Positions 12,860 through 38,063 of a stretch of DNA of 64,000 nt are shown one piece after another. Each line of letters opens with the position of its first letter. Positions within the stretch are counted from its first letter, which is position 1. The position numbers and the translations under genes are program-made. Under the pieces are notes generated by a model. The model made no database searches. It was not told the DNA's origin and saw nothing but the letters and a program-made list of their open reading frames with translations. Origin of the DNA: Minisyncoccota bacterium (GTDB lineage Bacteria; Patescibacteriota; Minisyncoccia; Phycocordibacterales; JABAAK01); NCBI GenBank assembly GCA_963668425.1, contig OY764332.1, positions 359,504-423,503 of the forward strand. The letters run 5' to 3'.

Positions 12860-13451
12860 AATGAAAGAATATCAACCAATGGAATTTGCTCTACCTGCCA
12901 TAGATGGTATTTCAGAGAAAACAATTGAAACTCATTTAGGTCTCTATAAGGGATATGTGACTCATCTGAATATGCAGTATCAGAAGATCAAGGAGATGTG
13001 CGAACAGGAAGCGGGCACCACAATCACCGTTTCCGCATTAACCAGAAGAATACCGTTTGAGCTTGCTGGGGTGATCAATCATGAGCGTTATTTCGGCGCA
13101 CTTGAAGGCGGAGCAACATCTCTGAGTGAGGGGAGTGCCTTTAGTGCTATAGTGCGTGAGCAGTTTGGTTCACTTGATGAATTTAAAATGGCAATACAAC
13201 ACACAGCGGCTGTTATGCGCGGGGTCGGGTGGGTAATTGTTGCATATGACAGTGCGCGCAGTGCACTACATATATACTGGGTTGTTGATCACGAGCTGGG
13301 GAACGTGAATTTGCCGACTGTCGTTGCGCTTGATATGTGGGAGCACTCGTATATGCTTGATTATTTACCGTCAGACAAGGGGAAATATGTTTCGGCATAT
13401 TTGGATGCGGTTAATTGGCACTATGTTGAGAAACAATTTGATTTGATTTAG
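12860..13451 (+). CDS. sodA: Fe/Mn-type superoxide dismutase.
   Basis: 'LPAIDGISEKTIETHLGLYKGYV', 'HERYFGAL' and 'DMWEHSYMLDY' are Fe/Mn SOD signatures. Start placed at the ATG after the hup terminator. Confidence 0.85.
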
Positions 13452-14122
13452 TAGCAGTCCTGTTGTTTTGCGATGTTTTTTGCGGGTGTTGTTAATGCTT
13501 CGTAGCTTTTCTTTTTGAACGGGGAAAGATATGCGGTTGCGATGGCATATCCTACGGAACACGCGGTGAATGGTGGTATTTTTTCTTTTTCATTACCCCA
13601 AAACCATTTTTCTATGTCTGGAGATGATGTGCTGTGCTCACTTTTTATTTTTTCCCATAGCCGTTTTATTTCCTTTTTTGGCAGTTGTGTGAAGCGACCT
13701 TTCGGCTTTGCGGACATTTTTTCTGTTACAAATGTCTCTGCAAGTCCTTCATTTATTACCTCTTCTAGTAGTCCACAGTCCGCATCAAGACCAATATGTT
13801 TTGTGCGTGCGGTTGTGTATAAGCTGCGGTAGCAGTGCTCTGTGATATTTTTTGTGATTATATTTTTGTTACTTGGTAGTGCCTTGTGTATCGTGTCAAC
13901 ATCAGCGAAGAGGTATATGGCAGTTTCATCACATGAGGATCCAAAAAACATTTCGCTATCAAGCATCTTTTTAGGGTTGGTGGAAATGAGTACTTCGCAT
14001 TCTGTGAGATTGAGATCGTTATGCGCTTCTTTATATATTTGGTCAATTGTTTGAGCAATGATATCCTGTGCAACTTTTTTGAGTGTTGTGATGTTGTTTT
14101 TTAAGAAGTGGATTCTATACAT
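13448..14122 (-). CDS. Hypothetical protein, possibly DUF2268-like (predicted metallopeptidase-like fold with a degenerate HExxH).
   Basis: The pattern 'EH..R...EGLAETF...W..L..EE.KRLWEKIK...WFWGN...P...GYAIATAYL' resembles DUF2268 members as I remember them. No intact HExxH. Confidence 0.3.
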   Translation of the reverse strand: MYRIHFLKNNITTLKKVAQDIIAQTIDQIYKEAHNDLNLTECEVLISTNPKKMLDSEMFFGSSCDETAIYLFADVDTIHKALPSNKNIITKNITEHCYRSLYTTARTKHIGLDADCGLLEEVINEGLAETFVTEKMSAKPKGRFTQLPKKEIKRLWEKIKSEHSTSSPDIEKWFWGNEKEKIPPFTACSVGYAIATAYLSPFKKKSYEALTTPAKNIAKQQDCY

Positions 14123-14213
14123 TGTCTTTATGGTACCAGATTTTGCTATTTTAGATTGTTGGCATGGTATGTTGGTAGTAATGGGCTTTTACAGCAGTTT
14201 CTTTTATGGAAAG

Positions 14214-17200
14214 ATGCGACGACCGGTGTTGTTTTTGTTATTGCTTATTTCTTGTTATTTGTTTTTTGTCACATTTGATGGCTTTGTGCATAACGATCAG
14301 ATTTTTGCTCATGCGCAGTCACTGAACACTGGCTCTTCTGATCAATCTTGGTCGGTACGATCGTTTATCTGGAATCAAAGGGGAAATACTTGGTTGCGTA
14401 CGCATTGTACGATGCGTATAGGTGGCTTGGGATCATTGGTGCCTGGTGAATCGTCTCGGTCGTCATGTAGTAATACCTCTGTGGATAAAAAATTGGGTTT
14501 TGTTCAATACTATCATGACATTGATCCTGATGACACTACACCGAATGATGATACTGATGATGTGTATGGTAAGTTGAAAGGTCGAGCGTGGTCTCCTTTT
14601 TATGGGGCTGTGTATTTTGATTTGTCTGATTTTCCCTCTTCTGGTAATGCCGCTTCTTGTTATGGACTCACTGGTGTCAGTAGGCAGGCGCGGGTACGGC
14701 GGTTGAGTGATGAGGTGAAGTTGGTTGGTTGTGCATATGTGCCGCTATTGAAGAATTATATTCTTTTTAATAAGTTTGGCACAACAGATTCTAGTATTCC
14801 TTCTTCTAGTTGGAATGGGGTTTCTGTTAGTGCTGTTGAAGATCCTGTCAGTGCGTATCTTACACTCTCTGGTTGTGCGTGGTCATCAAGGAGTGGTTTT
14901 TGGTCTGTTGGACCGAATAGATCTTCGGTGTTAAACAATGAGAACTGTTTGCCGCCAGGACATAACACTGCACTTCGGAGAGTGCTCCCTGAATCACGTA
15001 TTGGCTCTCCTGGTGGTGTGCTTACTACAGTCAGTCCGACTCGTACTTCCGCTAAAATTGGACAGGAGGTTGGATATCAGTATGTGTGCCCCGATGGTTA
15101 TTCTGCTCCATCTCTTCGTGTTGGTTCTAGGATTGTTTCCTCAATTCTTTCGTTTTTTCGTGGTTCATATCGTGAGATTTTCACTGATCCTGTTGACACC
15201 CTTTTACTCACTTGCACTGATAGAACAGGTGTTTTTACTACTTTACGAAATTCCTCTGGTGCAGTCAGCACCTCAGTTCAGAATTCCCTTTTTATTTCTT
15301 CATTTACTGCTACACCACCAGTGCTTACTGGAGGTGGCTTTATTTCGTTTGGTGGGCAGGTGAGCAATCAGGGTGGGTTTGCGAGCAGAACTTTTATTGA
15401 TACTGCTGTTGGACATTGTGATAATACCGTGCGGAACGGATGTCTTAACGGTGCTGTGAATGATGCAGTGATTGCTGATGATTCTCTGTATTATAAGTGG
15501 CGGTGTGAGGGGGTGGGTGGTGCAGCACACTCGGGAACTTGTCAATCTGTGAAGGTGCTATCTGTACCTACTCAGGCAAAGGTGGTTGCATCTGATAGAG
15601 CGGGCGATGATACTTTTGGCTACTCTGTTTCTATAGACGGAGACACCGCTATAGTTGGTGCTCACCTTGAGGATCACGATGCAAGTGGTAGCACTCCTAA
15701 ACCTGATGCTGGCTCCGCTTACATTTTCACCCGCACAGGAAGCACCTGGAGTCAGCAGGCAAAGATTGTTGCGTCTGATAGAGCGTCTTATAATTACTTT
15801 GGACACTCTGTTTCCATAGATGGAGATACCGCTATAGTTGGTGCTCACGCTGACGCCGGTTCCGCCTACATTTTTACCCGCACAGGAAGCACCTGGAGTC
15901 AGCAAGCAAAGATTGTTGCGTCTGATAAAGCGAGCGATGATACTTTTGGCTACTCTGTTTCTATAGACGGAGACACTGCTATAGTTGGTGCTTACAACGA
16001 AGATCACGATGTCAGCGGCGGCGCCTCTCAATTTAGTGCCGGCTCCGCTTACATTTTCACCCGCACAGGAAGCACCTGGAGTCAGCAGGCGAAGATTGTT
16101 GCGTCTGATAGAGCGTCTACTGATTATTTCGGCTACTCTGTTTCTATAGACGGAGACACCGCTATAGTTGGTGCTTACAACGAAGATCACGATGTCAGCG
16201 GTGGTGCTTCTAAAAATAACGCCGGTTCCGCCTATATCTTTACTCGTACAGGAAGCACCTGGAGTCAGCAGGCAAAGATTGTTGCGTCTGATCGATTTGA
16301 GAGGGACGATTTTGGTCGCTCTGTTTCCATAGATGGAGACACTGCTATAGTTGGTGCTCGCTTTGAGGACGACGATGTCAGCGGTGGCGCTTCTAAAAAT
16401 AACGCCGGCTCCGCTTACATTTTTACCCGCACAGGAAACGCCTGGAGTCAGCAGGCAAAGATTATTGCGTCTGATAGAGCGGTCAGTGATTCTTTTGGCT
16501 ACTCTGTTTTCATAGACGGAAACACCGCTATAGTTGGTGCTTACCTTGAGGATCACGATGTCAGTGGTGGCGCTTTTCAAACTAACGCCGGCTCCGCTTA
16601 CATTTTTACCCGCACAGGAAGCACCTGGAGTCAGCAGGCAAAGATTGTTGCGTCTGATAGAGCATCTAATGATTATTTTGGCCACTCTGTTTCCATAGAT
16701 GGTGGTATAGCCATGATTGGTGCTTATAATGAAGATCACGATGTCAGCGGTGGTGCTTCTAAAAATAACGCTGGTTCCGCTTATGCATTCACTTTTCCTA
16801 CTCAAGGGCTTTGTGATAACACTGTGCGAAATGGTTGCATGCTTGGTGTTGTGAATGACGCTGCGATTGTTGATACTGCCACACATTATCGTTGGCGGTG
16901 TGGTGGTGCTAATGGTGGTGGTGACTCTGGTGCTTGTCAGTTTTCTAAGGCGACTATTCCAGGTAATGAAGGGTATTGTGCTATTGTCAATAAGGTGACA
17001 GGGCGTGAGGTACACCGTTTTGACGTTGATGGATCTGCTGTTTCTGTTTCTGGCTCTGACTTGGTGGTGCGAGATACGGTGTATGACTTGCAGTGTCAAT
17101 ATAAAAAATTTACTGCTGATGGGCTGTTTGATAAATGGCAGTCGATCTCACCCCCCTCTGTTGTGGTGAAGGTGTTGCCGCGGAATGTTTCTGAGCGGAA

Positions 17201-18743
17201 TGTTTCTGGTTCTGTTGGTTTACCGGTTTTCTCTGAGACCAATGCTGCTGTTTCGGTTACTATTCCACCTAGTGCTGCCATGGTGTATGTGTATCGTCTT
17301 GATGTGTCCTCTTTGAGGCAGGTTACTCCGAACTCGTTGTATAAGATTTTTGTTGATCGAGATGCCGTTGAGTTGAGTGATAGTGAGACCATTAATGCTC
17401 TGAAGGCGCGATTGTTTGAGAGTGCGGTGCAGAGTAGGGTTGTGGTTGTTGGTTCTGGCTCTGGGAGTATTACCAGATCTGCTCTAACTGACAAATCTTT
17501 GGTTGCTGTTGCGCGAACTGTAGATGGTGCTTGGAGTCAGCAGGTCATATATTCTTTTTTGGTTGCCGGCTCTTGTGACAACGGTGTCCGTAACGGCTGC
17601 TCTGCCGGTTTCTTCAATGATTCAGCAGAGCCAGATACTGCTACTGAATACCGATGGCGGTGTGATGGAACGAGAGGTGGGGAAAATTCAGGTCAATGTT
17701 CCATCTTGAAATCCTCTGTTGTTGTCGGCTCTTGTGACAACAGTGTCCGCAACGGTTGCTCTTCTGGTACCCTCAATGATGCAGTAGAGTCAGATACTGC
17801 TACTGAATACCGATGGCGGTGTGATGGGGCTGGAGGTGAGAAAAATTCAGTCCAGTGTTCCATCGCTAAACCTGTTATCGGCTCTTGCAATAACAGTGTC
17901 CGCAACGGTTGTTCTACTGGAGTTGCTAATGATGCAGCAGAGTCAGATACTGCTACTGAATATCGATGGCGGTGTGATGGGGCTGGAGGTGAGAAAAATT
18001 CAGGTCAGTGTTCCATCTTGAAATCCTCTGTTTTCGCCGGCTCTTGCAATAACAGTGTCCGCAACGGTTGCTCTTCTGGTACCCTCAATGATGCGGCAGA
18101 GTCAGATACTGCTAGTGAATACCGATGGCGGTGTGATGGGTCTGGGGGTGGGCAAAATTCAGGTCAGTGTTCCATCTTGAAATCCTCTGTTGTTGTTGGC
18201 TCTTGTGACAACAGTGTCCGCAACGGTTGTTCTACTGGAGTTGCTAATGATGCAGCAGAGTCAGATACTGCTACTGAATATCGATGGCGGTGTGATGGGG
18301 CTGGGGGTGGTGTTCGTTCTGGTGTTTGTAAAAGAAACAAGCCAATTGATGGTGGCTGGAGTAAATGGGCACCACTCTCTGGAGCTAAAACTTGTGGTGA
18401 TGCATTTGTCCAGACGAGATCCTGCACTAATCCGGCACCGGCACATGGTGGTAAGGTGTGCTCTGGCTCTTCAAGTCGTCAGGATGTCGGTACGCAATGC
18501 TCATCCGGCAAGATTTGCAAGGATAAGAAGTGTGTGGTGTCGTCGATATCTTGTTCTGCTAACAATGCGTCTTTCAGACGCTGGGGCAGTAATGGCACCT
18601 GTTATGCTATTGGAGCTCGTGCTACTATTCCTGCCGGAGTGGTTGGAGGTCGCCACACAATTCAAGCTAATGTTGGAACTGGGAGGGCGGTATTTGAGTG
18701 TACGGATTCTGGTTGGACAGAAGTTAGCTCTACCTGTTCTTAG
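14214..18743 (+). CDS. Giant secreted/cell-surface protein (~1509 aa) with a signal peptide, 7 FG-GAP-type propeller repeats, 8 copies of a 4-Cys ~47-aa repeat, and a thrombospondin type-1-like module near the C-terminus.
   Basis: Start moved to the internal ATG giving 'MRRPVLFLLLLISCYLFF...'. Repeats 'FGYSVSIDGDTAIVGA...AGSAYIFTRTGSTWSQQAKIVASD' occur x7. 'GSCDNSVRNGCSxGxxNDAxESDTATEYRWRCDGxGG..SGQCSI' occurs x8. 'WSKWAPLSGAKTCGDAFVQTRSCTNPAPAHGGKVCSG' is TSP1-like. Confidence 0.7.
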   Translation: MRRPVLFLLLLISCYLFFVTFDGFVHNDQIFAHAQSLNTGSSDQSWSVRSFIWNQRGNTWLRTHCTMRIGGLGSLVPGESSRSSCSNTSVDKKLGFVQYYHDIDPDDTTPNDDTDDVYGKLKGRAWSPFYGAVYFDLSDFPSSGNAASCYGLTGVSRQARVRRLSDEVKLVGCAYVPLLKNYILFNKFGTTDSSIPSSSWNGVSVSAVEDPVSAYLTLSGCAWSSRSGFWSVGPNRSSVLNNENCLPPGHNTALRRVLPESRIGSPGGVLTTVSPTRTSAKIGQEVGYQYVCPDGYSAPSLRVGSRIVSSILSFFRGSYREIFTDPVDTLLLTCTDRTGVFTTLRNSSGAVSTSVQNSLFISSFTATPPVLTGGGFISFGGQVSNQGGFASRTFIDTAVGHCDNTVRNGCLNGAVNDAVIADDSLYYKWRCEGVGGAAHSGTCQSVKVLSVPTQAKVVASDRAGDDTFGYSVSIDGDTAIVGAHLEDHDASGSTPKPDAGSAYIFTRTGSTWSQQAKIVASDRASYNYFGHSVSIDGDTAIVGAHADAGSAYIFTRTGSTWSQQAKIVASDKASDDTFGYSVSIDGDTAIVGAYNEDHDVSGGASQFSAGSAYIFTRTGSTWSQQAKIVASDRASTDYFGYSVSIDGDTAIVGAYNEDHDVSGGASKNNAGSAYIFTRTGSTWSQQAKIVASDRFERDDFGRSVSIDGDTAIVGARFEDDDVSGGASKNNAGSAYIFTRTGNAWSQQAKIIASDRAVSDSFGYSVFIDGNTAIVGAYLEDHDVSGGAFQTNAGSAYIFTRTGSTWSQQAKIVASDRASNDYFGHSVSIDGGIAMIGAYNEDHDVSGGASKNNAGSAYAFTFPTQGLCDNTVRNGCMLGVVNDAAIVDTATHYRWRCGGANGGGDSGACQFSKATIPGNEGYCAIVNKVTGREVHRFDVDGSAVSVSGSDLVVRDTVYDLQCQYKKFTADGLFDKWQSISPPSVVVKVLPRNVSERNVSGSVGLPVFSETNAAVSVTIPPSAAMVYVYRLDVSSLRQVTPNSLYKIFVDRDAVELSDSETINALKARLFESAVQSRVVVVGSGSGSITRSALTDKSLVAVARTVDGAWSQQVIYSFLVAGSCDNGVRNGCSAGFFNDSAEPDTATEYRWRCDGTRGGENSGQCSILKSSVVVGSCDNSVRNGCSSGTLNDAVESDTATEYRWRCDGAGGEKNSVQCSIAKPVIGSCNNSVRNGCSTGVANDAAESDTATEYRWRCDGAGGEKNSGQCSILKSSVFAGSCNNSVRNGCSSGTLNDAAESDTASEYRWRCDGSGGGQNSGQCSILKSSVVVGSCDNSVRNGCSTGVANDAAESDTATEYRWRCDGAGGGVRSGVCKRNKPIDGGWSKWAPLSGAKTCGDAFVQTRSCTNPAPAHGGKVCSGSSSRQDVGTQCSSGKICKDKKCVVSSISCSANNASFRRWGSNGTCYAIGARATIPAGVVGGRHTIQANVGTGRAVFECTDSGWTEVSSTCS
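15570..16800 (+). repeat. Coding tandem repeats (~138 bp x 7) encoding the FG-GAP-like propeller blades.
   Basis: Near-identical nucleotide periodicity. The antisense ORF 15558..17099 is an artefact of this. Confidence 0.8.
17560..18330 (+). repeat. Coding tandem repeats (~141-150 bp x 6, plus 2 diverged copies upstream) encoding the 4-Cys module.
   Basis: Repeated GGCTCTTG(T/C)(G/A)ACAACAGTGTCCGCAACGG(T/C)TG(C/T)TCT...TACCGATGGCGGTGTGATGG units. Confidence 0.8.
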
Positions 18744-18770
18744 TTGATGTAATTACACTGCTTTCTGTTG

Positions 18771-19125
18771 GAGGGGGAGTAGTGTGCATAGTAATGCACG
18801 CCACTCCCCCTCCTTACTCCCCCTCCTTTTTTTAAAAACAAATATTTTTTACCTGCTTTTTTCTTCTTTTTTAAAAACAAATATTTTTTATCTGCGGAGG
18901 GGGAGGGATTCGGCGTCAAGTTTCTAAGCTCGCTATCGCTCACTAAGAACTTCCTGCCCGGGCTCGGCGACAATTTTGCTTCGCCCTGCTTCGCAAAATC
19001 GTAGACCGCCTCCGCCTTTCAAATCCCAACGTAGTGTGCATTACTATGCACACTACTCCCCCTCCTTACTCCCCCTCCTTTTTTTAAAAACAAATATTTT
19101 TTATCTGCGGAGGGGGAGGGATTCG
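18771..19125. repeat. Complex repeat region between the giant-protein gene and tRNA-Ser. Two ~250-bp-spaced copies of [palindromic hairpin GTAGTGTGCAT..ATGCACACTAC + CTCCCCCTCC T-rich tract + 17-nt tRNA-Ser 3' end]; the first copy lacks the rest of the tRNA.
   Basis: Copy 1 spans about 18771-18912 and contains an internal duplication of TTTTTAAAAACAAATATTTTTTA. Copy 2 spans about 19031-19125 and runs into the intact tRNA. 'TCTGCGGAGGGGGAGGGATTCG' is present at 18891-18912 and at 19104-19125. Confidence 0.8.
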
Positions 19126-19195
19126 AACCCTCGATACGGATAATCCGTATGCCGGTTTTCAAGACCGGTGCCTTCAACCACTCAGCCACCCCTCC
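19108..19195 (-). tRNA. tRNA-Ser (anticodon UGA) with a long variable arm.
   Basis: Manual fold: acceptor GGAGGGG/CCCCTCC, discriminator G, anticodon stem CCGGT/ACCGG with loop CUUGAAA, variable-arm hairpin ATACGGA-TTAT-CCGTAT, T-arm GAGGG-TTCGAAT-CCCTC. Confidence 0.85.
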
Positions 19196-21746: not shown

Positions 21747-21910
21747 ACGGCTGTAGTATATCTTATATTTTACTAAATATTGGTGTTGTGTTTTTGGCGT
21801 GGCACAATAGAGAATGTATGAGATTGCGCGATGTTTCACGAATGTTGTATTATGACAAGAGGAAGAGAGTGATTGATAAAAAGGCAAATCTTACCCGTCA
21901 GAAGGCAGAC

Positions 21911-23758
21911 ATGGATTCGCAATGGAGTGGTGAGGTTGAGCGACCGGTGCGGTCAAGGTACCTCGTGTATTTGACTATTGGAACTTTTTTGTTTTTTGTT
22001 ACAGCTGTTGCGACTGCATATTTTATTAGATATGCAGGCATTGATCGGACGGTTTCTCCGGAGAAGATCATGATTGTGACGCAGGGTGCAACTGCGGCTG
22101 ATGGTGGAGTTGCGGTGCCGTTGACGATACGGGTGGCAAATCAGAATTCTGTTGCTGTGGAAGGGGTGACTTTATACATTACGTATCCAAAAGGGGTTTA
22201 TATGTGGGAAGGTGATACTGTTGTGCCGCTTCAGAACAAAGATAAGGAATTGTTCTTGGGGGAAATACAACGAGGTGAGATACTAAATCGACATATTATG
22301 CCAGTGTTTTATGGAGAGAGTGGCGATGTGAAGGAGATTTCGTATTTGTTGGAGTATAAGGTTCCTGAGGTTGCGAAGCGACAGACGCGACGAGGATCGC
22401 ATGAGGTGTTGCTCCGCACCGCCCCTGTGTTGGTTAGTAAGCCGGAGTACAGTAGTGTGGTTGCAGGGAAGGAGGTGACTTTTACTTTTGATGTGCAGTC
22501 AAACTCTTCTTTTGTATTGCCAATGGTGTATGTTGATTTGCGATACCCTGTTGGTTTTACTCCGAAGCGTTTTTCACCACTTCCGGCTAATGTAGACGGG
22601 ACGGAGTGGCGGTTTCCTGGGTTGCGACCTGGCGCCAAAAAGACCATCACTATAACCGGCACGATTCGTGGCAAGGAACAAACACTACAAGCGATTTCCG
22701 CGCGTGCGCGCGTTGCGCCGTCTGGGGAAAAGTTTGTGGATGCTACTGTTGTTGCATCTGAAGAGGATGTTGTGGATGTTGGGGAGGCATTTCTTGACGT
22801 GCAGGTACGACTGAATGGTAAGATTTCTGATCGGATCATTGCTTCTCCTGGTGATGTGGTGCGGGGAGACGTTCGTTGGGTTAATCGGGATTCATCACAA
22901 CTGCATACTCTTGTTCTTACAGCGACCATTAGTGGGACAGGGTTAGATGAGAGTAGTATTGTTCCTGAAGATGGCGGGTACTTTGATGAGGTTAAGCGAT
23001 ATATCGTGTGGGATAAGGAGAGCGATAGGTCGTTTTCTTCTGTGCGTGTTGGCGATGGCGGTACTTCTTCTTTCACTTTTCGTGTTTTGCCGGATTTGGC
23101 TGAGTTTGTGCAGATGCAGCAGTCCATACAGGTGCATGTATCTGCGCAGGCACATCGGGTGAGCACCGGAGCGGTTGAGCGGATTGAGGATGTTGCGGTT
23201 GGTCAAGTAGATGTGCGGAGCGTGTTGCATGTCGTGGGGAATACACTATATTCAACGAGTGCGGTGCGGAATTCTGGACCGTTGCCGCCGCAGGTAGGGA
23301 AGGAGACTACCTATGTTTTGAAGTATTTTTTGAAGAACAGTGGTAATGATGTGTCTCAGATTGTGATTGTGGTGCCACTTGGGCGAGAGGTTGTGTTGAC
23401 AGATGTTACTTCGGGGATTGCGTTGAGTGAGTGGGAGTATGATGAAGATCAACATTTGGTGCTGGTACGTATACCACAGCTGGTGGCAGGTGGGCCTCGG
23501 TCAAGTCGATCGGTTGAGTTTCAGGTTGCGGTTAAGCCGCAGGGGCAGGATGTCGGTCGGCATCTTGTTTTGGCGAAGCGGGCAGAGTATAGCGCGCGGG
23601 ATGCTTATGTTGATGAAGTGTTTGAAGGCAGTGTTGATCCGTTAACTACAGAGATTACATCTGAGCCAGTAGGGGAGACAAGGGTTGTTGAATATCAGCG
23701 AGAGGTTGTTGAGCAGGGGCGGGTGGATATGGTTGATATTGTTACCCCTGTCCGCTGA
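21911..23758 (+). CDS. Large hypothetical membrane-anchored protein (~615 aa), N-terminal TM then a beta-rich extracellular-type sequence.
   Basis: Start placed at the ATG 'MDSQWSGE...' downstream of the overlap. 'YLVYLTIGTFLFFVTAVATAYFI' TM helix. No catalytic motifs. Confidence 0.35.
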   Translation: MDSQWSGEVERPVRSRYLVYLTIGTFLFFVTAVATAYFIRYAGIDRTVSPEKIMIVTQGATAADGGVAVPLTIRVANQNSVAVEGVTLYITYPKGVYMWEGDTVVPLQNKDKELFLGEIQRGEILNRHIMPVFYGESGDVKEISYLLEYKVPEVAKRQTRRGSHEVLLRTAPVLVSKPEYSSVVAGKEVTFTFDVQSNSSFVLPMVYVDLRYPVGFTPKRFSPLPANVDGTEWRFPGLRPGAKKTITITGTIRGKEQTLQAISARARVAPSGEKFVDATVVASEEDVVDVGEAFLDVQVRLNGKISDRIIASPGDVVRGDVRWVNRDSSQLHTLVLTATISGTGLDESSIVPEDGGYFDEVKRYIVWDKESDRSFSSVRVGDGGTSSFTFRVLPDLAEFVQMQQSIQVHVSAQAHRVSTGAVERIEDVAVGQVDVRSVLHVVGNTLYSTSAVRNSGPLPPQVGKETTYVLKYFLKNSGNDVSQIVIVVPLGREVVLTDVTSGIALSEWEYDEDQHLVLVRIPQLVAGGPRSSRSVEFQVAVKPQGQDVGRHLVLAKRAEYSARDAYVDEVFEGSVDPLTTEITSEPVGETRVVEYQREVVEQGRVDMVDIVTPVR

Positions 23759-30808: not shown

Positions 30809-33800
30809 ATGAGTATTACAAATAAAGTAACCGTAGGGTTAGTTTCTTTTGCTTTCGTCTTTTCTTTTGTTGTGGTTAATTCTGTAACCGCACAGAACGA
30901 CGAAGATCAAATAGCCACTCTTCAGGCGCAGATTGCACAATTGCTTGAGCAAATCAAGGGATTGGAATCAGGGCAGACGAGTGGTGGTAGTAGCAGTACT
31001 TACACTGCCACTGCTACAGGAAGCAATGCAGCATGTTCATATACATGGACACGAAACCTTTCCATAGGATCTACTGGCGATGACGTCCGCCAGTTGCAAC
31101 GATTCCTCAATGGTAACCCTCAAACTCAAGTAGCTGTAACAGGTGTTGGTTCTCCTGGTAATGAGTCTAGCTACTATGGACCTGCAACCGCTCGGGCGGT
31201 GAGCAAGTTCCAAGAGATGTATGCTGCGCAAATCTTGACTCCGCTTGGTCTGACGAATGGTACTGGTGGTTTTTACACCTCAACACGTGCCCGCTTGAAT
31301 GAAGTGTGTCAGGGAAGCAGTGGAAGTGGATCTGGTATTTCAGTTAATCATGCTGGAACACGATCAGCGACTTCGCCTGCTGTTGTGCGGGTAACGGGTG
31401 ACGCCCTTGCAGTAACGGCTGGAAATCCAATCAGTGATTCATATGTTGTGCTTGGTGCGCAACGAGCGCCGTTTACCTCGGTTGTGTTGACCGCAGGATC
31501 TGATGATGTTCGGATAGAGAGTATTCGTATTAAGCGATTCGGACTCTCTTCATCTGACAACTTTGAGAGTATTGCGTTGGTTGATGCCAATGGTGTACAA
31601 GTTGGCTCCGCTCGATCGTTGAACAGTCGGGATGAGGTTAGCTTAGGTAGCAATTTTATAGTGCCGGCGAATCGATCAGTAACCTTGGCGGTCATTGGTA
31701 ATATGTCCAGTGATACTGACGAGTTTACTTCAGGATCTATCGCAGGTCTTGAGGTGGCAGAGGTTGTCGCTGATGCTCGGGTTCAGGGTACATTCCCAAT
31801 TCGTGGAGCAGCTCACGTTCTTTCGACGAGTATTGAACTCCAGAAAGTTGAGATTGAAGTGAGTGGAGGAGGTGGTAGTATTGAGTTTAATGAGGATACT
31901 GAGGTTGCCTCAGTTTCTATTGATTTGAGATCTGAGACCGTTGGAGGTGTTGATGCTGATAAGGAGGATGCGTATCTTCGGTCTGTTATTCTTGAGCAGA
32001 TTGGTAGTGTAGATGCTAGTGAAATCGGAGATCTCACAGTGTTTGTGGATGATGATAGAGTTGACCATGTTATTGCTGTTGATCGTGACCGTTTCATTAT
32101 CAATTTTGGTGGTAAGGGTGTAATGATTGAAGAAGGTGATGATGTGGAAATAACCGTTGAGGCGAACACCGATCGTGGCTATGAGGAGACCGTGCAGTTT
32201 GCTATTGATGACATGTCTGATGTGTATATTCTCGGTGCGAGTTATGGCTATGGTCTGCCGGTTTGTTTTGCAGGTGACGATAATTGTGATGGTAAGCAGG
32301 ATGAGACTGATTCATGGGACGATAACACCAAGACCTCTGTGGCGACTATTTCTTCCGGAAAGATTGCTAAAGGTGATCGTCTGAAGAAGTTTGAGGATGA
32401 AGTTCACTATGGCGACGATGTTATCCTTGGTGCGTATTCTGTTGAATTTGAGGGTGAAGATGTTTTGATGGAAGACCTAACTTTTGAAGTTTCGTTGAGC
32501 AATTATCCATGGACAAGCACCAGCGACAATGCGTGGGTAGACGCGGATGAGGACACTGTTCGTTTTGATAGTGTTCGTCTGCGAGTGGATGGTGAGAATG
32601 TCGCCTACGCTAGTGACAGTATTGACTTTGATGATTCGGATGCGGATGGTACTAGTATAGATTTGGATGTTGAATTTGATGGTGGTTTCACCGTTGATGT
32701 TCGTGATGATCGCGAAGTTATCTTTGAGATTGTCGCTGATCTTGATGCGGCATGGGGTCACTTCGAAGGCACATCTGTTGAATTTACCCTTACGGATGTT
32801 GATACTGCCGAGGGTGTGAGTTCTGAACGGGACTACACCGCTACGGGTGAGTACTTTGCGTCTGCTATTGAATTTGAAGATGTGAAGATTATGGGTAATG
32901 AGATTTCCTTTGATATTAACGATGATGGTGTTGATGGTACCAGTTTCGTTAGAGGTGCTGACAGTGTCGTGTTTGGTACCTTTGAAGTTGATGCGAAGGA
33001 TGCTATTGATGATGTGGAATTGCGTGATCTCTACTTGAGCTTCCAGATTCCATCTGACTCTGACCTTAGCACTGCTGTTGGTGACTTGAGTGATTTGAAT
33101 AACTGTCGCATTCTTGACGAAGGTGGTGATGAGATTGCCGATAGTCGTGGTGTTACAGGTGTGAAAGTAGCTGCTGACACTGATGTGGTAAATGATCAGG
33201 CGCGATTCCGATTTGACGACTATGTTGTTGAAGCAGGAGAGCGTGAGGATATGGATATCGTCTGTGATATTGATGACGGAGCTGACTCTGGAGATGCATT
33301 CAGGATTTCTGTTGATGTTAGTTCTACTGTGAATGACCGTGTGAAGTATAGAATTGGTCGAGATGAGGATGACATGTCGCTTGGTACTGGTTCGTCATCT
33401 ATTATTCAGATTGGTTCAAGTGGTGAGCTTACGATCTCAACAGATTACCCTGATGAGGATGAGGCTGTTATAGCAGTGGCAACTGGTAAGAGCGGTGCTG
33501 ATGATGTTGCTGTGCTTGAGATTGAGCTTGAGGCGGAGAAAGAAGATATAGAGATTTTAGATGTGTATCTCTCGCTCCCAACAAACATGGGTGCTCAAGT
33601 TGGCGGTAGTGCTGTTACTGTAGATGCAGATGAGCTGGAGGAGGTGTATGATCGCTTTACTCTGAAACTCGGTAACACGACCGCTGATGTGGATGATTAT
33701 ATGGCAACTGAGACATTTGCTGCGGCTGATTATGTCAATCAAAGTAGTGATGTTACTGGCACTAAATTAGTTATGTTTGAAGATGTGAATGAGATTGTTC

Positions 33801-34537
33801 GGGAAGGTGATGACAATGCGGAGACATTTGACCTGACATTTGACTTTAATGGTATTGACGATGATGATGGTGTTGCCGGTCAGTTTATTAAAGGATTCGA
33901 ATTGATTGTTGTTTGGGAAGGTGATGATAGTGGTACGGTTAACCTTACTAGACACACAATTGGTGATATCTTTACTGTTGCGTTGCCATTCCCAACTGTG
34001 CCGACTGTTTCAACGACGGAGACGAATCGCACATTGCAGGTAAGCGAGCAGAAGATCTATGAATTTACCGTGAATGCTGATGATGAAGGTGATGTGTATC
34101 TTGGTCAGGTTGGGTTTTCTATCAGCTTGAGCGATGGTGCCCAAATTGACGCAGGAGGTATTAAAGTCTATCGGGGTACTGGTAACAGTGGTGATTCTCG
34201 CGGTACGAATGCTTCTGCTGCTTCTGCTGCTACGAAGGTTGAGTTTACCACTCCTGAGCGAATTGACGCTGGTGAATCAAGAACGTACTCAGTGTATGCT
34301 GATGTGGGGGATGGTCTTGGGGAGAATGCTTCTGTAACTGTTCAGTTACTTCACGATGAGAAAGAGACCACTCCAGAGGCCGGTCGTCAGCATGGGGCAG
34401 CAAAAACAGCTGGTAACTTTGTTTGGTCACCGAATGCGCTTGACAATGACGGAGCGAAAACTAGCAATGCTGACTGGTTTACTGGTTGGACGGTTGTTAA
34501 GGACTCTGACACTAAGCAGTGGCGCCTTGAGAGATAG
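30809..34537 (+). CDS. Large (1242 aa) secreted, strongly acidic protein with an N-terminal signal/TM, a coiled-coil, a peptidoglycan-binding (PG_binding_1-like) domain and a long D/E/V/G-rich beta-type body.
   Basis: 'LSIGSTGDDVRQLQRFLNGNP...YYGPATARAVSKFQEMYAAQILTPLGLTNGTGGFYTSTRARL' fits the PG-binding domain pattern. The rest is low-complexity acidic. Confidence 0.5.
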   Translation: MSITNKVTVGLVSFAFVFSFVVVNSVTAQNDEDQIATLQAQIAQLLEQIKGLESGQTSGGSSSTYTATATGSNAACSYTWTRNLSIGSTGDDVRQLQRFLNGNPQTQVAVTGVGSPGNESSYYGPATARAVSKFQEMYAAQILTPLGLTNGTGGFYTSTRARLNEVCQGSSGSGSGISVNHAGTRSATSPAVVRVTGDALAVTAGNPISDSYVVLGAQRAPFTSVVLTAGSDDVRIESIRIKRFGLSSSDNFESIALVDANGVQVGSARSLNSRDEVSLGSNFIVPANRSVTLAVIGNMSSDTDEFTSGSIAGLEVAEVVADARVQGTFPIRGAAHVLSTSIELQKVEIEVSGGGGSIEFNEDTEVASVSIDLRSETVGGVDADKEDAYLRSVILEQIGSVDASEIGDLTVFVDDDRVDHVIAVDRDRFIINFGGKGVMIEEGDDVEITVEANTDRGYEETVQFAIDDMSDVYILGASYGYGLPVCFAGDDNCDGKQDETDSWDDNTKTSVATISSGKIAKGDRLKKFEDEVHYGDDVILGAYSVEFEGEDVLMEDLTFEVSLSNYPWTSTSDNAWVDADEDTVRFDSVRLRVDGENVAYASDSIDFDDSDADGTSIDLDVEFDGGFTVDVRDDREVIFEIVADLDAAWGHFEGTSVEFTLTDVDTAEGVSSERDYTATGEYFASAIEFEDVKIMGNEISFDINDDGVDGTSFVRGADSVVFGTFEVDAKDAIDDVELRDLYLSFQIPSDSDLSTAVGDLSDLNNCRILDEGGDEIADSRGVTGVKVAADTDVVNDQARFRFDDYVVEAGEREDMDIVCDIDDGADSGDAFRISVDVSSTVNDRVKYRIGRDEDDMSLGTGSSSIIQIGSSGELTISTDYPDEDEAVIAVATGKSGADDVAVLEIELEAEKEDIEILDVYLSLPTNMGAQVGGSAVTVDADELEEVYDRFTLKLGNTTADVDDYMATETFAAADYVNQSSDVTGTKLVMFEDVNEIVREGDDNAETFDLTFDFNGIDDDDGVAGQFIKGFELIVVWEGDDSGTVNLTRHTIGDIFTVALPFPTVPTVSTTETNRTLQVSEQKIYEFTVNADDEGDVYLGQVGFSISLSDGAQIDAGGIKVYRGTGNSGDSRGTNASAASAATKVEFTTPERIDAGESRTYSVYADVGDGLGENASVTVQLLHDEKETTPEAGRQHGAAKTAGNFVWSPNALDNDGAKTSNADWFTGWTVVKDSDTKQWRLER

Positions 34538-35896: not shown

Positions 35897-36367
35897 ATGG
35901 GAGATATAGCATTTACTGTTAATGCACTAAATGTATTAATTGCGTGTGGAGGATTAATTGCACTCACTTTGGGGTGGTTATTCAAAATACACGGCAGGGT
36001 GTCAGAGCTTGAAGGCATAAACAAAGGTAAAGAATTAGCAAAAGAACAAAGCCCACTTACTCTCACAGATGCAGGCAATGCCTTATTGTGTGATAGTGGT
36101 GGTAAAAAATACATTGAAGATAACGAAAAATCATTGATAAAAAACTTTAATGACTTGGACAATGCTTTTGATATACAGGAGAAGGCAAAAGACATAATAC
36201 GGGAAAAGATGAAAGAGCCAAACGCTCTTAAAAATATCAAGATATACCTTTTTGATAATGGAAAGTCCGTTGAAGATATAGTTTTGGTGATGGGGTTGGA
36301 ATTGCGCGATGCTGTCTTTAAGCATAAAGGTATAGCAGTTGAGCAAGTGGACGCAGACAAAAGTTGA
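35897..36367 (+). CDS. Hypothetical membrane-anchored protein (N-terminal TM + ~120-aa soluble domain) immediately upstream of the MTase-HNH gene.
   Basis: 'VNALNVLIACGGLIALTLGWLF' helix. A-rich codon usage. No family recognised. Confidence 0.35.
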   Translation: MGDIAFTVNALNVLIACGGLIALTLGWLFKIHGRVSELEGINKGKELAKEQSPLTLTDAGNALLCDSGGKKYIEDNEKSLIKNFNDLDNAFDIQEKAKDIIREKMKEPNALKNIKIYLFDNGKSVEDIVLVMGLELRDAVFKHKGIAVEQVDADKS

Positions 36368-36463
36368 CCTTGCTCTATATAAGCAAAAGAACATACAAGT
36401 TTGAGTTCTTAACAATTCGCTCTTATAAACGCTGGCTGAATTGCCTGACTGCCATAGAGTAAA

Positions 36464-37915
36464 ATGCTTGTGGTTTATACTGTTTTCAAGATGTCTACTC
36501 CTAATTTCAAGCCGAATACACTCTTCACGAGAGATAATTTGTATATTTTGCGTGGCATGAACAGTGAGTGTGTTGACTTGATATATCTTGATCCGCCATT
36601 TAATTCAAAAAAAAACTATGTTGCACCTTTGCCTGTGAAGGATGAAGAAATACTTGCCTCATTCAAGGATGTATGGAAACTCATTGATATTGATGAAGCG
36701 TTGCATGAGGAATTGCAGGAGACTCAGCCATGTTTGTATGAGATTATTAAGGGTGTTGAAGCAGCACACTCCAAGGCGATGTTTTCATACTTGATATACA
36801 TGACCATGCGACTGGTTGAAATGCATCGTGTGCTAAAACCAACAGGAAGTATATTTCTGCACTGCGATCCAACGGCAAGCCACTACTTAAAAATAGTGAT
36901 GGATTGTATTTTTGGAAAGAGTAATTTTAGAAATGAGATTATTTGGTGTTACGGTGAAACGGCCAGAGGTGCAAAGGCAAAAGCCAGTCAGTTTGCACGA
37001 AATAATGATGTGATACTTTTTTACGGAAAAACAAGTCAACATCTCTTTAACAAAACATATTTTGAAAGGAAAATAAAGTTTGAGGGGTCAGGGTATCAGC
37101 GGGAGGATGATGGACGATGCTTTAGAACAGCACCACGAGGCGATTATACAGATGACAGTATTGAAAGGTTAAGAAGGGAAGGTAGGATTTATGAGACAAG
37201 AAACGGGACTATACGCATTAAATATCATGAAAAATGTGATGAAACCTTTGTGTATGAAAAAAAACTTTTTGGTAATGTTTGGTCAGATATACCTGATATG
37301 ATGCACGCAGAAGAGATAGAAAAAACCGGCTATTCAACTCAAAAGCCGTTAAAACTATTACAGCGAATCATCAATACAGGTAGCAAAAAAGGTGGTTGGG
37401 TACTTGACCCATTCTGTGGATGTGCAACTACCATGGTTGCCGCAGAAAAACTGGGGAGGAAGTGGGTTGGCATTGATGCCTCTCATTTTGCAAAATTTTT
37501 TGTTAAAAGCAGAATGGAAAAAGAATTGGAGAAAAAAATTCCTTTTATTTTTCTCAAGGATATATCTGGTAGGCAGTTCAGTGATGAAAAAGAATTGAGT
37601 GATTGGGAAAATAAGAAAAGGATGTATGAAGAGCAGGAAGGTGTATGCAATGGATGCGTTGGTCATTATCATGAAAAAGATATGACTATTGACCATATCA
37701 TACCAACATCAAAGGGCGGTCAAGACACACAAGATAACAAGCAATTACTTTGTTTTCACTGTAACACGACAAAGGGGACAGGAACAATGCCAACGCTATG
37801 GCAAAAACTTGCAAAAGGGCATGTATTGGAGTATCACGAAGCGGATAAACTCATACAAGAGCACAAAGACAGAAAAAAGAAACTTGAAAAAGAGTATGGA
37901 ACTAAAACACTATGA
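36464..37915 (+). CDS. DNA methyltransferase (beta-class N6-adenine/N4-cytosine type, motif IV before motif I) fused to a C-terminal HNH endonuclease domain.
   Basis: 'DLIYLDPPFNSKKNY' (DPPF catalytic motif) near the N-terminus and 'VLDPFCGCATTMVAAEKLGRKWVGID' (SAM-binding motif I) near residue 315. C-terminal 'CNGCVGHYHEKDMTIDHIIPTSKGGQDTQDNKQLLCFHCNTTKG' is a Zn-finger HNH motif. Confidence 0.8.
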   Translation: MLVVYTVFKMSTPNFKPNTLFTRDNLYILRGMNSECVDLIYLDPPFNSKKNYVAPLPVKDEEILASFKDVWKLIDIDEALHEELQETQPCLYEIIKGVEAAHSKAMFSYLIYMTMRLVEMHRVLKPTGSIFLHCDPTASHYLKIVMDCIFGKSNFRNEIIWCYGETARGAKAKASQFARNNDVILFYGKTSQHLFNKTYFERKIKFEGSGYQREDDGRCFRTAPRGDYTDDSIERLRREGRIYETRNGTIRIKYHEKCDETFVYEKKLFGNVWSDIPDMMHAEEIEKTGYSTQKPLKLLQRIINTGSKKGGWVLDPFCGCATTMVAAEKLGRKWVGIDASHFAKFFVKSRMEKELEKKIPFIFLKDISGRQFSDEKELSDWENKKRMYEEQEGVCNGCVGHYHEKDMTIDHIIPTSKGGQDTQDNKQLLCFHCNTTKGTGTMPTLWQKLAKGHVLEYHEADKLIQEHKDRKKKLEKEYGTKTL

Positions 37916-38063
37916 GCAAAAAAGCATTTCTAAAACTTTTGAACAAAACCCTTACACCCGTGAAAGCAAAACCTGAAACAAAGGAACAGAGGAAAGACGG
38001 TGGTTGTAATGTGTTTTTGCACAAGATGTGGACATCTGTGTAAGTGTGTTATACTTTTGGTAT

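What the first reader, a model, noticed from the sequence alone, without database searches (positions are those of the whole stretch)
14214..18743. Giant surface protein combining a 7-blade FG-GAP propeller, eight copies of an unrecognised 4-Cys 47-aa repeat and a thrombospondin-type-1-like module
The seven near-identical blades 'FGYSVSIDGDTAIVGA...AGSAYIFTRTGSTWSQQAKIVASD' are integrin-alpha-type FG-GAP repeats. They are flanked and followed by eight copies of 'GSCDNSVRNGCSxGxxNDAxESDTATEYRWRCDGxGGxxNSGQCSI' (C-x5-C-x~20-C-x~10-C), a module I do not recognise. Near the C-terminus, 'WSKWAPLSGAKTCGDAFVQTRSCTNPAPAHGGKVCSGSSSRQDVGTQC' matches the TSP1 pattern. TSP1 domains are overwhelmingly eukaryotic, and an integrin-like propeller plus TSP1 suggests an adhesin aimed at a host or partner-cell surface. 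The repeats are nearly identical at the DNA level, which implies recent expansion and recombinational length variation.
Basis: partly seen in the sequence, partly recalled or inferred. Interest (0 to 1): 0.6.

Follow-up and report, generated by a model that had tools for sequence, protein, structure and literature searches.

The report
Modular surface adhesin of a CPR bacterium
This is a real 1,509-residue exported protein of a tiny Kaiserbacteria-like (CPR) bacterium that joins a seven-repeat FG-GAP array, seven copies of an uncatalogued disulfide-rich repeat and a divergent thrombospondin type-1 repeat on a rare scaffold, and it is most likely a cell-attachment protein whose binding modules are swapped between close relatives.

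Summary
The gene is real (window 14214..18743, + strand). Orthologues sit in the same gene neighbourhood in three other assemblies, and dN/dS is 0.1-0.3 in every domain.

- **FG-GAP repeats:** Pfam finds seven FG-GAP_2 repeats (E 1.9e-114). They lack the integrin Ca2+ motif.
- **4-Cys repeat:** there are seven copies, not eight, with spacing C-x7-C-x20-C-x11-C. It has no match in Pfam, NCBIfam or the PDB. AlphaFold models it at pLDDT 93-98, and it recurs in many metagenomic proteins, up to 29 copies in one.
- **TSP1 module:** Pfam misses it (11.8 bits against a cut-off of 21.6). Homology is still clear: phmmer hits human thrombospondin-1 repeats (E 2e-14), and profile-profile comparison gives 99.2%.

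These form a rare conserved core of about 40 clusters among 1.84 billion representatives. The [4-Cys, FG-GAP array, 4-Cys] cassette appears to be inserted into a loop of an Ig-like sandwich in that core. Relatives carry other inserts at that domain, or none.

Repeat number and module content differ between orthologues, and the internal repeats evolve in concert.

My best reading is a Sec-exported adhesin with exchangeable heads, used to attach to a partner cell. No binding function has been tested.

The parts
14214..14315 (+). Signal peptide (aa 1-34): MRRP, hydrophobic core VLFLLLLISCYLFFVTF, predicted cleavage AHA|QS
   Evidence: This is the only hydrophobic segment in the protein (Kyte-Doolittle scan). 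Homologues have the same short n-region, h-region and AxA/VRG-Q junction. Cleavage itself is inferred.
14316..15407 (+). N-dom (aa 35-398): all-beta domain with 8 Cys and no database annotation; first half of the conserved family core
15408..15551 (+). 4-Cys repeat #1 (aa 399-446), N-terminal flank of the FG-GAP array
   Evidence: It is a positional orthologue of L003 copy 1 (86% nt).
15579..16796 (+). Seven FG-GAP_2 repeats (aa 456-861): blade boundaries 15579, 15762, 15909, 16092, 16275, 16458, 16641. Presumed 7-bladed beta-propeller.
   Evidence: Pfam FG-GAP_2 E 1.9e-114, 7 stretches. Register taken. Relatives have 7 or 14 repeats. Propeller closure was not modelled.
16803..16946 (+). 4-Cys repeat #2 (aa 864-911), C-terminal flank of the FG-GAP array
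   Evidence: It is a positional orthologue of L003 copy 2 (84% nt). It lies directly next to repeat #1 in L004, which has no FG-GAP array.
16947..17564 (+). mid-dom (aa 912-1117): beta-rich domain with 2 Cys; second half of the conserved core. It continues the Ig-like sandwich begun at the end of N-dom.
   Evidence: It follows N-dom directly in most family members. See the P0065 DSSP and sequence. No Pfam hit.
17565..18338 (+). Five tandem 4-Cys repeats #3-7 (aa 1118-1375): unit starts at 17565, 17724, 17877, 18036, 18195
   Evidence: TRF period 159, 4.7 copies, 84% matches. AF2 of repeat #7 gives pLDDT 93-98.
18348..18533 (+). Divergent thrombospondin type-1 repeat (aa 1379-1440), 6 Cys, pI 9.1
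   Evidence: phmmer against the PDB hits thrombospondin-1 TSR2/3 at E 2.2e-14. hhalign against canonical TSRs gives 99.2%, E 6.6e-20. Foldseek top hits are all TSR proteins. The Pfam TSP_1 score is only 11.8 bits.
18534..18743 (+). C-dom (aa 1441-1509), a 4-Cys terminal module, plus the TAG stop codon
   Evidence: Found only in orthologues and close relatives (L002, L003 out of frame, L004/P0063 twice, P0064). AF2 pLDDT 64-86. No significant sequence hit in Pfam or the PDB.
13448..14122 (-). Divergent neighbour: DUF2268 predicted Zn-protease gene. Not part of the adhesin, but it fixes the adhesin's start.
   Evidence: Pfam DUF2268 E 2.4e-17. tblastn finds it full-length in L002, L003 and L004 at 98%, 79% and 66% identity.

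Best explanation
The gene encodes a Sec-exported, disulfide-rich, all-beta surface or extracellular adhesin of a small-genome Kaiserbacteria-like (CPR/Patescibacteria) bacterium.

A rare conserved core (N-dom + mid-dom) acts as a display scaffold. Into one loop of an Ig-like sandwich in that core, a cassette is inserted. The cassette is a seven-repeat FG-GAP_2 array, presumably a propeller, held between two 4-Cys modules. This projects the array outward in the manner of a 'split-domain' ligand-binding head.

The C-terminal arm is a rod of five 4-Cys modules. It ends in a basic thrombospondin type-1 repeat and a small 4-Cys C-dom, which form a second candidate binding tip.

The protein most likely mediates attachment to a partner or host cell surface, through glycans or proteins. 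Unequal recombination and gene conversion in the repeat arrays, together with wholesale module gain and loss, retune its reach and specificity between strains.

**Shown:** the domain identities, the family architecture, variation between orthologues, and purifying selection.

**Inferred:** signal-peptide cleavage, propeller closure, the split-domain geometry, disulfide bonding, and every binding function.
For: **Export**
- There is a single N-terminal hydrophobic segment with an AHA|QS junction, and no other transmembrane segment or LPXTG motif.
- Every ectodomain segment has an even number of Cys: 8, 4, 0, 4, 2, 20, 6, 4.

**Adhesive modules**
- FG-GAP_2 x7.
- The TSR is homologous to solved TSRs.

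**Scaffold with swappable heads**
- In about 40 family representatives N-dom and mid-dom are contiguous.
- A subset carries the [4-Cys, 7 or 14 FG-GAP repeats, 4-Cys] cassette between them.
- P0083 and P0088 carry DUF6923/DUF4394 repeats in the same Ig-like region.
- Other members add other modules: P0077 has C-terminal LRRs, P0082 has Big_9/Cadherin_5, and P0072 has fn3-like domains.
- The window's insertion point, between 'VSNQGGFA' and 'YCAIVNK', maps to the loop between consecutive strands 366-376 and 385-391 of the P0065 model.

**Fast architectural change under purifying selection**
- L003 has 6 tandem 4-Cys units against 5 in the window.
- L004 (Ca. Kaiserbacteria) lacks the FG-GAP array and duplicates the [4-Cys + TSR + C-dom] unit.
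- Internal repeats are homogenised within a genome. L003 units are 91-100% identical to each other but 74-84% identical to the window's.
- dS across the FG-GAP array between the window and L002 is 0.34, against 0.03-0.12 in the other segments.
- dN/dS is 0.1-0.3 throughout.

**Organism**
- The source contig is 696,550 bp.
- The syntenic orthologue lies in a Ca. Kaiserbacteria MAG.

**Precedent**
- Large surface proteins with adhesion domains, including integrin domains, have been proposed as host-recognition factors in Patescibacteria (PMC13059738).
- In RTX adhesins, ligand-binding domains emerge from split domains (PMC12077191).
Against: - No experimental data exist.
- The host or partner is unknown.
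- No cell-anchoring motif was found, so the protein could be released rather than displayed.
- The genomic neighbours are housekeeping genes, so there is no adhesion, pilus or secretion operon to lean on.
- The split-domain geometry rests on a homologue's model (pLDDT 78.7, 24-sequence alignment) and its DSSP string. I could not inspect coordinates.
- The FG-GAP array itself was not modelled.
Confidence: 0.55

Rival explanations
1. It is a structural envelope or matrix protein of the bacterium itself, such as an S-layer-associated, cell-cell cohesion or biofilm scaffold protein, rather than a host-directed adhesin.
Against: Purely structural proteins rarely swap whole binding modules between close relatives (FG-GAP array present or absent, TSR units duplicated, other propeller-like inserts, LRRs). 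The family is also very rare (about 40 clusters), which does not fit a general envelope component.
Confidence: 0.2
2. It is a eukaryote-directed mimic. The TSR (and the integrin-like array) would have been acquired from an animal or protist host, and would bind eukaryotic matrix or cell-surface receptors.
For: The TSR is 45-53% identical to animal TSRs over about 50 residues and shares the CTNPAPAHGG core. TSRs act as adhesion modules in animals and apicomplexans (PMC3417536).
Against: The module belongs to a prokaryotic subtype with a shortened QTR[ST]C rung. That subtype recurs next to 4-Cys repeats in other prokaryotic proteins (P0005, P0023, P0026, P0033), including one on an archaeal-looking contig. 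Scores do not place it closer to eukaryotic than to prokaryotic TSRs. FG-GAP_2 arrays are common in bacteria (PMC3192720). All cultivated Patescibacteria are episymbionts of other microbes (PMC12206443).
Confidence: 0.1
3. It is a secreted effector whose uncharacterised N-dom/mid-dom core carries a lytic, toxic or nutrient-harvesting activity, with the repeats serving only for targeting.
For: The core has no annotation and no close structural relative. There is no anchoring motif. A related 4-Cys array is fused to a subtilase in P0101.
Confidence: 0.1
4. The repeat architecture is an assembly artefact: collapsed or chimeric repeats.
For: Tandem repeats with periods of 147-183 and 153-159 nt are the kind of sequence that short-read assemblers mishandle.
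Against: Copies are only 71-91% identical, so they can be told apart. The ORF is intact over 4.5 kb. Two independent assemblies give the same seven blades, and one has 96% aa identity. dN/dS is 0.1-0.3.
Confidence: 0.03

Closest known systems
Bacterial FG-GAP_2 (PF14312) integrin-type beta-propeller proteins (Chouhan et al. 2011, PMC3192720)
   Same: There are seven consecutive FG-GAP-class repeats in an exported protein. Relatives carry two tandem sets of seven, as that paper describes for bacteria.
   Different: No blade has the integrin Ca2+ motif DxDxDGxxD. Only FG-GAP_2 is hit, not the integrin-alpha FG-GAP model. Here the array sits as an insert flanked by two 4-Cys modules within another domain.
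Thrombospondin type-1 repeat (TSR; Pfam TSP_1 PF00090; thrombospondin-1 TSR2/3, PDB 1LSL)
   Same: Homology is significant to solved TSRs and to a canonical TSR profile. It shares WSxW, CG, QTR-x-C, TNPAPxxGG-x-C and G-x-S. The fold search returns only TSR proteins at the top.
   Different: It falls below Pfam's threshold. It lacks the first Cys of CSxTCG and the third Trp (WSKWAPL), and has one Arg rung instead of two or three. Two extra C-terminal Cys keep the total at six. Incomplete CWR layers and atypical disulfides have a precedent in CCN3 (bioRxiv 10.1101/779553). It occurs in a CPR bacterium, next to 4-Cys repeats.
Split-domain ligand-binding regions of RTX adhesins (PMC12077191, PMC10865825)
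   Same: A candidate binding module emerges from a loop of a beta-sandwich 'companion' domain. Different family members present different modules in that domain.
   Different: There are no RTX nonapeptide repeats and no type I secretion signal. Export is through a Sec signal peptide. The rod is made of 4-Cys modules rather than Ca2+-stiffened Ig-like repeats. The organism is a CPR bacterium. The resemblance is one of mechanism, not family membership.
Large surface proteins of episymbiotic Patescibacteria proposed as host-recognition factors (PMC13059738)
   Same: It is a large exported protein of a small-genome CPR bacterium, built from adhesion-type domains that include an integrin-like one.
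   Different: The lineage differs (Kaiserbacteria-like rather than Absconditicoccaceae). The domain set differs too: the TSR, the 4-Cys repeat and the N-dom/mid-dom core are not among the adhesion domains that passage of the paper lists. The role is equally untested.
Small disulfide-rich beta modules: fibronectin type I finger, CCP/sushi, and the class-B GPCR hormone-receptor ectodomain

Membership tests
FG-GAP_2 / integrin-type beta-propeller | Repeats match the family HMM above the curated threshold | tested here: met
   Pfam FG-GAP_2 scores 374 bits against a cut-off of 23, E 1.9e-114, with 7 stretches.
FG-GAP_2 / integrin-type beta-propeller | Seven repeats closing into one propeller | not tested
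   Seven repeats are counted, and relatives have 7 or 14.
Integrin alpha-type propeller (metazoan sense) | Ca2+-binding hairpin motif DxDxDGxxD in blades, and a match to the integrin FG-GAP model (PF01839) | tested here: not met
   A regex finds no DxD/NxD/NGxxD or DxDxDG anywhere in the protein. Pfam reports only FG-GAP_2.
Thrombospondin type-1 repeat (TSR) | Score above Pfam TSP_1 gathering threshold | tested here: not met
   The isolated module scores 11.8 bits against 21.6 (E 0.3). TSP_1 is also not reported in relatives P0063 and P0064.
Thrombospondin type-1 repeat (TSR) | Statistically significant sequence homology to bona fide TSRs | tested here: met
   phmmer against the PDB hits thrombospondin-1 at E 2.2e-14 (per-repeat 1e-6 and 4e-6), then UNC5B, properdin, ADAMTS13, C6 and C8. 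hhalign of profile A7 against A8 gives 99.2%, E 6.6e-20 over 47 columns. Eukaryotic proteins annotated with TSP_1 were hit in the 5.8e9 database.
Thrombospondin type-1 repeat (TSR) | Complete CWR layering (WxxWxxW plus RxRxR) and six Cys including CSxTCG | tested here: not met
   The sequence is WSKWAPL (two Trp) and VQTRSC (one Arg rung). The first Cys of CSxTCG is replaced (SGAKTCG). Six Cys are kept through two extra C-terminal Cys. It is therefore a variant TSR.
Thrombospondin type-1 repeat (TSR) | TSR fold | tested here: inconclusive
   The AF2 model has pLDDT 70-84 over the module. The Foldseek PDB top 28 are all TSR-bearing chains, with probability up to 0.99 (UNC5A), but the best E-value is 0.019 and none is <= 0.001.
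RTX split-domain adhesins | Binding module emerging from a split beta-sandwich | tested here: inconclusive
   The insertion point maps to a loop between consecutive strands of the homologue model. Alternative inserts occur in the same region. Coordinates could not be inspected.
RTX split-domain adhesins | RTX nonapeptide repeats and type I secretion architecture | tested here: not met
   No RTX or HemolysinCabind family appears in the Pfam scans. A Sec-type signal peptide is present instead.
Sushi/CCP, FnI or HormR modules (for the 4-Cys repeat and C-dom) | Significant sequence or fold match | tested here: not met
4-Cys repeat as a degenerate TSR | Profile-profile similarity to TSR | tested here: not met
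   hhalign of A5 against A8 gives a probability of 0.17%. MAFFT's earlier co-alignment of the two was an artefact of Cys spacing.

The most novel reading that the evidence does not exclude
The 4-Cys repeat is a previously undescribed, widespread prokaryotic extracellular domain. Together with a prokaryotic TSR subtype it forms a portable adhesion cassette. Lineages that live on other cells would use this cassette: CPR bacteria, an archaeon with DPANN-like context, Micavibrio and Bdellovibrio.

The N-dom/mid-dom family would be a dedicated display scaffold whose Ig-like loop accepts interchangeable propeller-type heads that set host range. If so, TSRs have a deeper or more reticulate prokaryotic history than the textbook 'eukaryotic adhesion module' view allows.
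Probability: 0.3. Interest if true: 0.7.

Novelty: new variant of a known kind. Interest (0 to 1): 0.5.

Why it matters
How CPR/Patescibacteria recognise and hold on to their hosts is largely unknown outside type IV pili in Saccharibacteria (PMC12206443). Hosts of Kaiserbacteria-like lineages are not established.

This locus gives a concrete candidate that can be expressed and tested. It has three separable putative binding parts: the FG-GAP array, the TSR and the C-dom. It also comes with natural variants in which these parts are present, absent or duplicated.

It further defines two uncatalogued sequence families: the 4-Cys repeat, and the N-dom/mid-dom core with its insertion hotspot. And it shows that a Pfam-negative TSR subtype exists in prokaryotes, which bears on the origin and spread of a classic 'eukaryotic' adhesion module.

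None of this is revolutionary, because modular repeat adhesins are a well-known kind of protein.

Tried and rejected
- **Exact look-ups.** Looking up the protein from either start, and the DUF2268 neighbour, found nothing. I reached the orthologues through neighbouring genes instead.
- **First C-terminal alignment (A2).** It was unusable because MAFFT stacked TSR fragments on the 4-Cys columns. I rebuilt it with bridging sequences after local tests.
- **4-Cys as a degenerate TSR.** Rejected: hhalign gives 0.17%.
- **Third homologue search.** Run with the 4-Cys profile, it returned one hit, because the word index is a poor fit for 50-residue fragments. This was a wasted search.
- **afdb50 fold library.** It was unavailable, so I have no AFDB-based taxonomy of the 4-Cys fold.
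- **Cluster look-ups.** They gave no organism names.
- **Diversity-generating retroelement.** A reverse transcriptase lies 4.9 kb downstream of the orthologue in L001. I found no template/variable repeat pair involving the adhesin. The RT belongs to an island bracketed by 198-nt direct repeats. Rejected.
- **Pfam TraI_hel_assoc_N** (E 3e-10, 0 stretches). This is summed weak matches inside FG-GAP blades, and it also appears in P0061 and P0062. Treated as spurious.
- **PKD_3 and Noggin hits** on the 4-Cys array. Both are below threshold. Spurious.
- **'L003 lacks the C-dom.'** My first reading was wrong. The C-dom is encoded out of frame after an A6 run.
- **Promoter and terminator scans.** No more sites than expected by chance.
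- **Literature.** I found no paper on TSRs in Patescibacteria or other prokaryotes in the held library.
Full report
**What is there**

The finding lies in one long ORF that ends at 18743. I place the start at 14214 (MRRPVLFLLLLISCYLFFVTF...AHA|QS) for three reasons.
- This gives the protein's only hydrophobic segment.
- It matches the short n-region/h-region N-termini of all homologues.
- It avoids overlapping the 5' end of a divergent DUF2268 gene (13448..14122, minus strand; Pfam E 2.4e-17). That gene is conserved full-length in three related loci at 98%, 79% and 66% identity.

The product is 1,509 aa. The mature protein is 155 kDa with pI 5.6, and it has no sortase motif and no second transmembrane segment.

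**Domain map**

| Segment | Residues (aa) |
|---|---|
| Signal peptide | 1-34 |
| N-dom | 35-398 |
| 4-Cys #1 | 399-446 |
| Seven FG-GAP_2 repeats | 456-861 |
| 4-Cys #2 | 864-911 |
| mid-dom | 912-1117 |
| Five tandem 4-Cys repeats | 1118-1375 |
| TSR | 1379-1440 |
| C-dom | 1441-1509 |

Every extracellular segment has an even number of Cys (8, 4, 0, 4, 2, 20, 6, 4), which fits a fully disulfide-bonded ectoprotein.

*FG-GAP repeats.*
- Pfam gives FG-GAP_2 at E 1.9e-114 with seven stretches.
- Blades are 61 aa, except blade 2 at 49 aa.
- No blade has the integrin Ca2+ motif, and phmmer finds no solved relative.
- So 'integrin-type' holds only at superfamily level. Such arrays are known in bacteria, including tandem pairs (PMC3192720).
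- I did not model this region. Closure into a propeller is inferred from the count of seven here and of 7 or 14 in relatives.

*4-Cys repeat.*
- There are seven copies, not eight, spaced C-x7-C-x20-C-x11-C.
- Nothing matches in Pfam, NCBIfam or PDB sequences, whether searched as a single sequence or as a 38-sequence profile.
- Pfam is also blank on homologues with up to 29 copies.
- It is not a degenerate TSR (hhalign 0.17%).
- AlphaFold2 models it at pLDDT 93-98, as a small module of short beta strands.

*TSP1.*
- The Pfam model fails: 11.8 bits against a cut-off of 21.6.
- Homology is nevertheless clear.
  - phmmer against the PDB ranks thrombospondin-1 TSR2/3 first (E 2.2e-14; per-repeat 1e-6 and 4e-6). 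UNC5B/D, properdin, ADAMTS13 and C6/C8 follow.
  - A profile of the four Kaiserbacteria-type modules against 14 canonical TSRs gives 99.2%, E 6.6e-20.
  - The top Foldseek hits are all TSR chains, although none has E <= 0.001.
- It is a variant TSR. The first Cys of CSxTCG and the third Trp are missing, there is one Arg rung, and two extra C-terminal Cys are present.
- Incomplete CWR layers have a precedent in CCN3 (bioRxiv 10.1101/779553).

**Organism and orthologues**

- Neighbouring proteins place the window on a 696,550-bp contig.
- Syntenic orthologues (MetRS, ClpP, HU, SOD, DUF2268, then this gene) occur in two ENA assemblies: L002 at 96% aa identity and L003 at 80%.
- A further orthologue lies in a MAG titled Candidatus Kaiserbacteria (L004, 68% in N-dom).
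- The architecture changes between them.
  - L003 has six tandem 4-Cys units instead of five, and a longer loop in blade 2.
  - L004 has no FG-GAP array at all, so 4-Cys #1 and #2 are adjacent. It also has the [4-Cys + TSR + C-dom] unit twice.
- The internal repeats evolve in concert.
  - L003's tandem units are 91-100% identical to each other but 74-84% identical to the window's.
  - Two L003 blade cores are 100% identical.
  - The flanking and last 4-Cys units behave as positional orthologues, at 84-87%.
- Between the window and L002, dS is 0.34 across the FG-GAP array and 0.03-0.12 in the other segments. dN/dS is 0.1-0.3 throughout.
- This supports recombinational length variation. It also rules out both a pseudogene and an assembly artefact.
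- 'Nearly identical DNA' is overstated: TRF gives 83-87%, and pairwise values are 71-91%.

**The overlooked core**

- N-dom has only two word-index homologues.
- A full HMMER scan of 1.84 billion representatives finds 50 hits, of which about 40 are true family members.
- Local annotation shows that in most members N-dom and mid-dom are contiguous.
- A subset has [4-Cys, 7 or 14 FG-GAP_2 repeats, 4-Cys] inserted between them.
- C-terminal decorations vary: 4-Cys arrays, TSR + C-dom, a second FG-GAP array, LRRs in P0077, Big_9/Cadherin_5 in P0082, and fn3-like domains in P0072.
- P0083 and P0088 carry DUF6923/DUF4394 repeats inside the same Ig-like region.
- The AF2 model of P0065, a contiguous member, has pLDDT 78.7 and is all-beta.
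- Pfam and PDB profiles are blank for the core.
- The window's cassette sits between 'GGQVSNQGGFA' and 'YCAIVNKVTG'. In P0065 these are consecutive strands 366-376 and 385-391, separated by an eight-residue loop.
- I infer that the cassette projects from a split Ig-like sandwich. This is analogous to the way ligand-binding domains emerge from split domains in RTX adhesins (PMC12077191). It is not membership of that family, because there are no RTX repeats and export is by a Sec signal.

**Distribution of the 4-Cys repeat and the prokaryotic TSR**

- The C-terminal query found 52 proteins.
- Many are 4-Cys arrays from metagenomes. Two are named by NCBI as Micavibrio sp. and Bdellovibrio sp. MAG proteins.
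- Several combine 4-Cys repeats with TSRs. Some of these pass Pfam (P0024-26, P0033, P0037).
- These prokaryotic TSRs share the shortened QTR[ST]C rung.
- P0026 lies on a contig that encodes a canonical RpoN/Rpb10 subunit, so that contig is probably archaeal.
- Eukaryotic TSR proteins are hit at similar scores, so I cannot tell the direction of any transfer.

**Mechanism**

My best reading, at confidence about 0.55, is a Sec-exported adhesin. A rare conserved scaffold displays exchangeable binding heads: the FG-GAP array on a two-module stalk, and a basic TSR (pI 9.1) plus C-dom at the end of a five-module rod. The protein would attach this episymbiont-type bacterium to a partner cell.
- All cultivated Patescibacteria are episymbionts (PMC12206443).
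- Large adhesion-domain surface proteins have been proposed as host-recognition factors in another CPR lineage (PMC13059738).
- The rivals are a self-directed envelope or matrix protein, a eukaryote-directed mimic, and an effector with an unrecognised enzymatic core.
- No ligand, localisation or expression data exist.

**Verdict**

The TSP1 and FG-GAP calls are right, and the eukaryote-target inference is unnecessary. This is a new variant of a known kind, the modular repeat adhesin, and it contains at least one uncatalogued domain family.

Noticed in passing
L001:2554-8809 (same contig as L002); corresponds to window ~18744-19100: In the 96%-identical strain, a ~6-kb island lies just downstream of the adhesin gene. 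It is bracketed by 198-nt direct repeats (92% identical) and carries two N6_N4 DNA methyltransferases, a 416-aa ORF and an RVT_1 reverse transcriptase. The window has no such island between the adhesin and its tRNA-Ser (19107-19195). This looks like a mobile element and shows no DGR-type repeat with the adhesin.
   Followed up: partly
L003:6625-6660, aligned to window 18519-18530: The L003 orthologue stops after '...KICKK' because an A-run has six A where L002 has five. The C-dom is still encoded downstream in the +1 frame (tblastn 51% identity, L003 6643-6879). This is either a homopolymer sequencing error or a genuine, possibly phase-variable, frameshift that removes the terminal module.
   Followed up: partly
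window 13448-14122 (-) and 14058-14213 (+): The gene calls stored for L002 and L003 extend the adhesin ORF upstream, and replace the conserved minus-strand DUF2268 gene with short plus-strand ORFs. tblastn shows the DUF2268 gene is intact in all four loci, so those stored calls are probably wrong.
   Followed up: yes
L005:4196-4387 (-) and L005:8001-9089 (+): P0026 has a Pfam-positive TSP_1 followed by two 4-Cys repeats. It sits on a 48-kb contig that encodes a canonical archaeal/eukaryotic RNA polymerase subunit N (MIIPIRCFSCGKPVG...CCR), which suggests that an archaeon carries the same module pair.
   Followed up: partly
L006:1476-9159: P0024 has three 4-Cys repeats and several TSRs. It is followed by two reprolysin-type zinc metalloprotease genes and LRR proteins. 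This is an ADAMTS-like set of parts spread over neighbouring prokaryotic genes.
   Followed up: no
window 15579-16796 compared with L002: Synonymous divergence between the two 96%-identical strains is 0.34 across the FG-GAP array but 0.03-0.12 in all other segments of the same gene. This points to localised recombination or gene conversion.
   Followed up: partly
window 36001-38000 (ORF 36464-37915): This is a low-GC segment (37.7% against about 44-46%) with reversed AT skew. It encodes an N6_N4 methyltransferase fused to an HNH endonuclease, and is probably a horizontally acquired restriction-modification-type element.
   Followed up: no
window 1-64000: GC skew is positive in every 2-kb window, so the cumulative skew rises without a turn. 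Nearly all long ORFs are on the + strand. The whole window appears to lie on one replichore with strong co-orientation of genes.
   Followed up: no
window 21788-23758 and 30809-34537: Two further large proteins of unknown function lie nearby. One is 656 aa with a DUF11 match, and the other is 1,242 aa with a peptidoglycan-binding PG_binding_1 match. Both are possible additional envelope or surface proteins.
   Followed up: no
L004:13121-14434: In the Kaiserbacteria MAG, 3.8 kb downstream of the adhesin orthologue, there is a 437-aa Cys-rich ORF with SYGP/AYGP repeats. It is unannotated.
   Followed up: no
window 14580-14920 (aa ~123-235 of the protein): N-dom contains three spaced copies of a motif of the form G-[RC]-A-[WY]-[SV]-x(3-6)-[FY]-x-x-x-[FN] (GRAWSPFYGAVYFD, GCAYVPLLKNYILFN, GCAWSSRSGFWSVGPN). 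P0102 matches parts of N-dom six times in series, so N-dom may itself be built from an unrecognised repeat.
   Followed up: no
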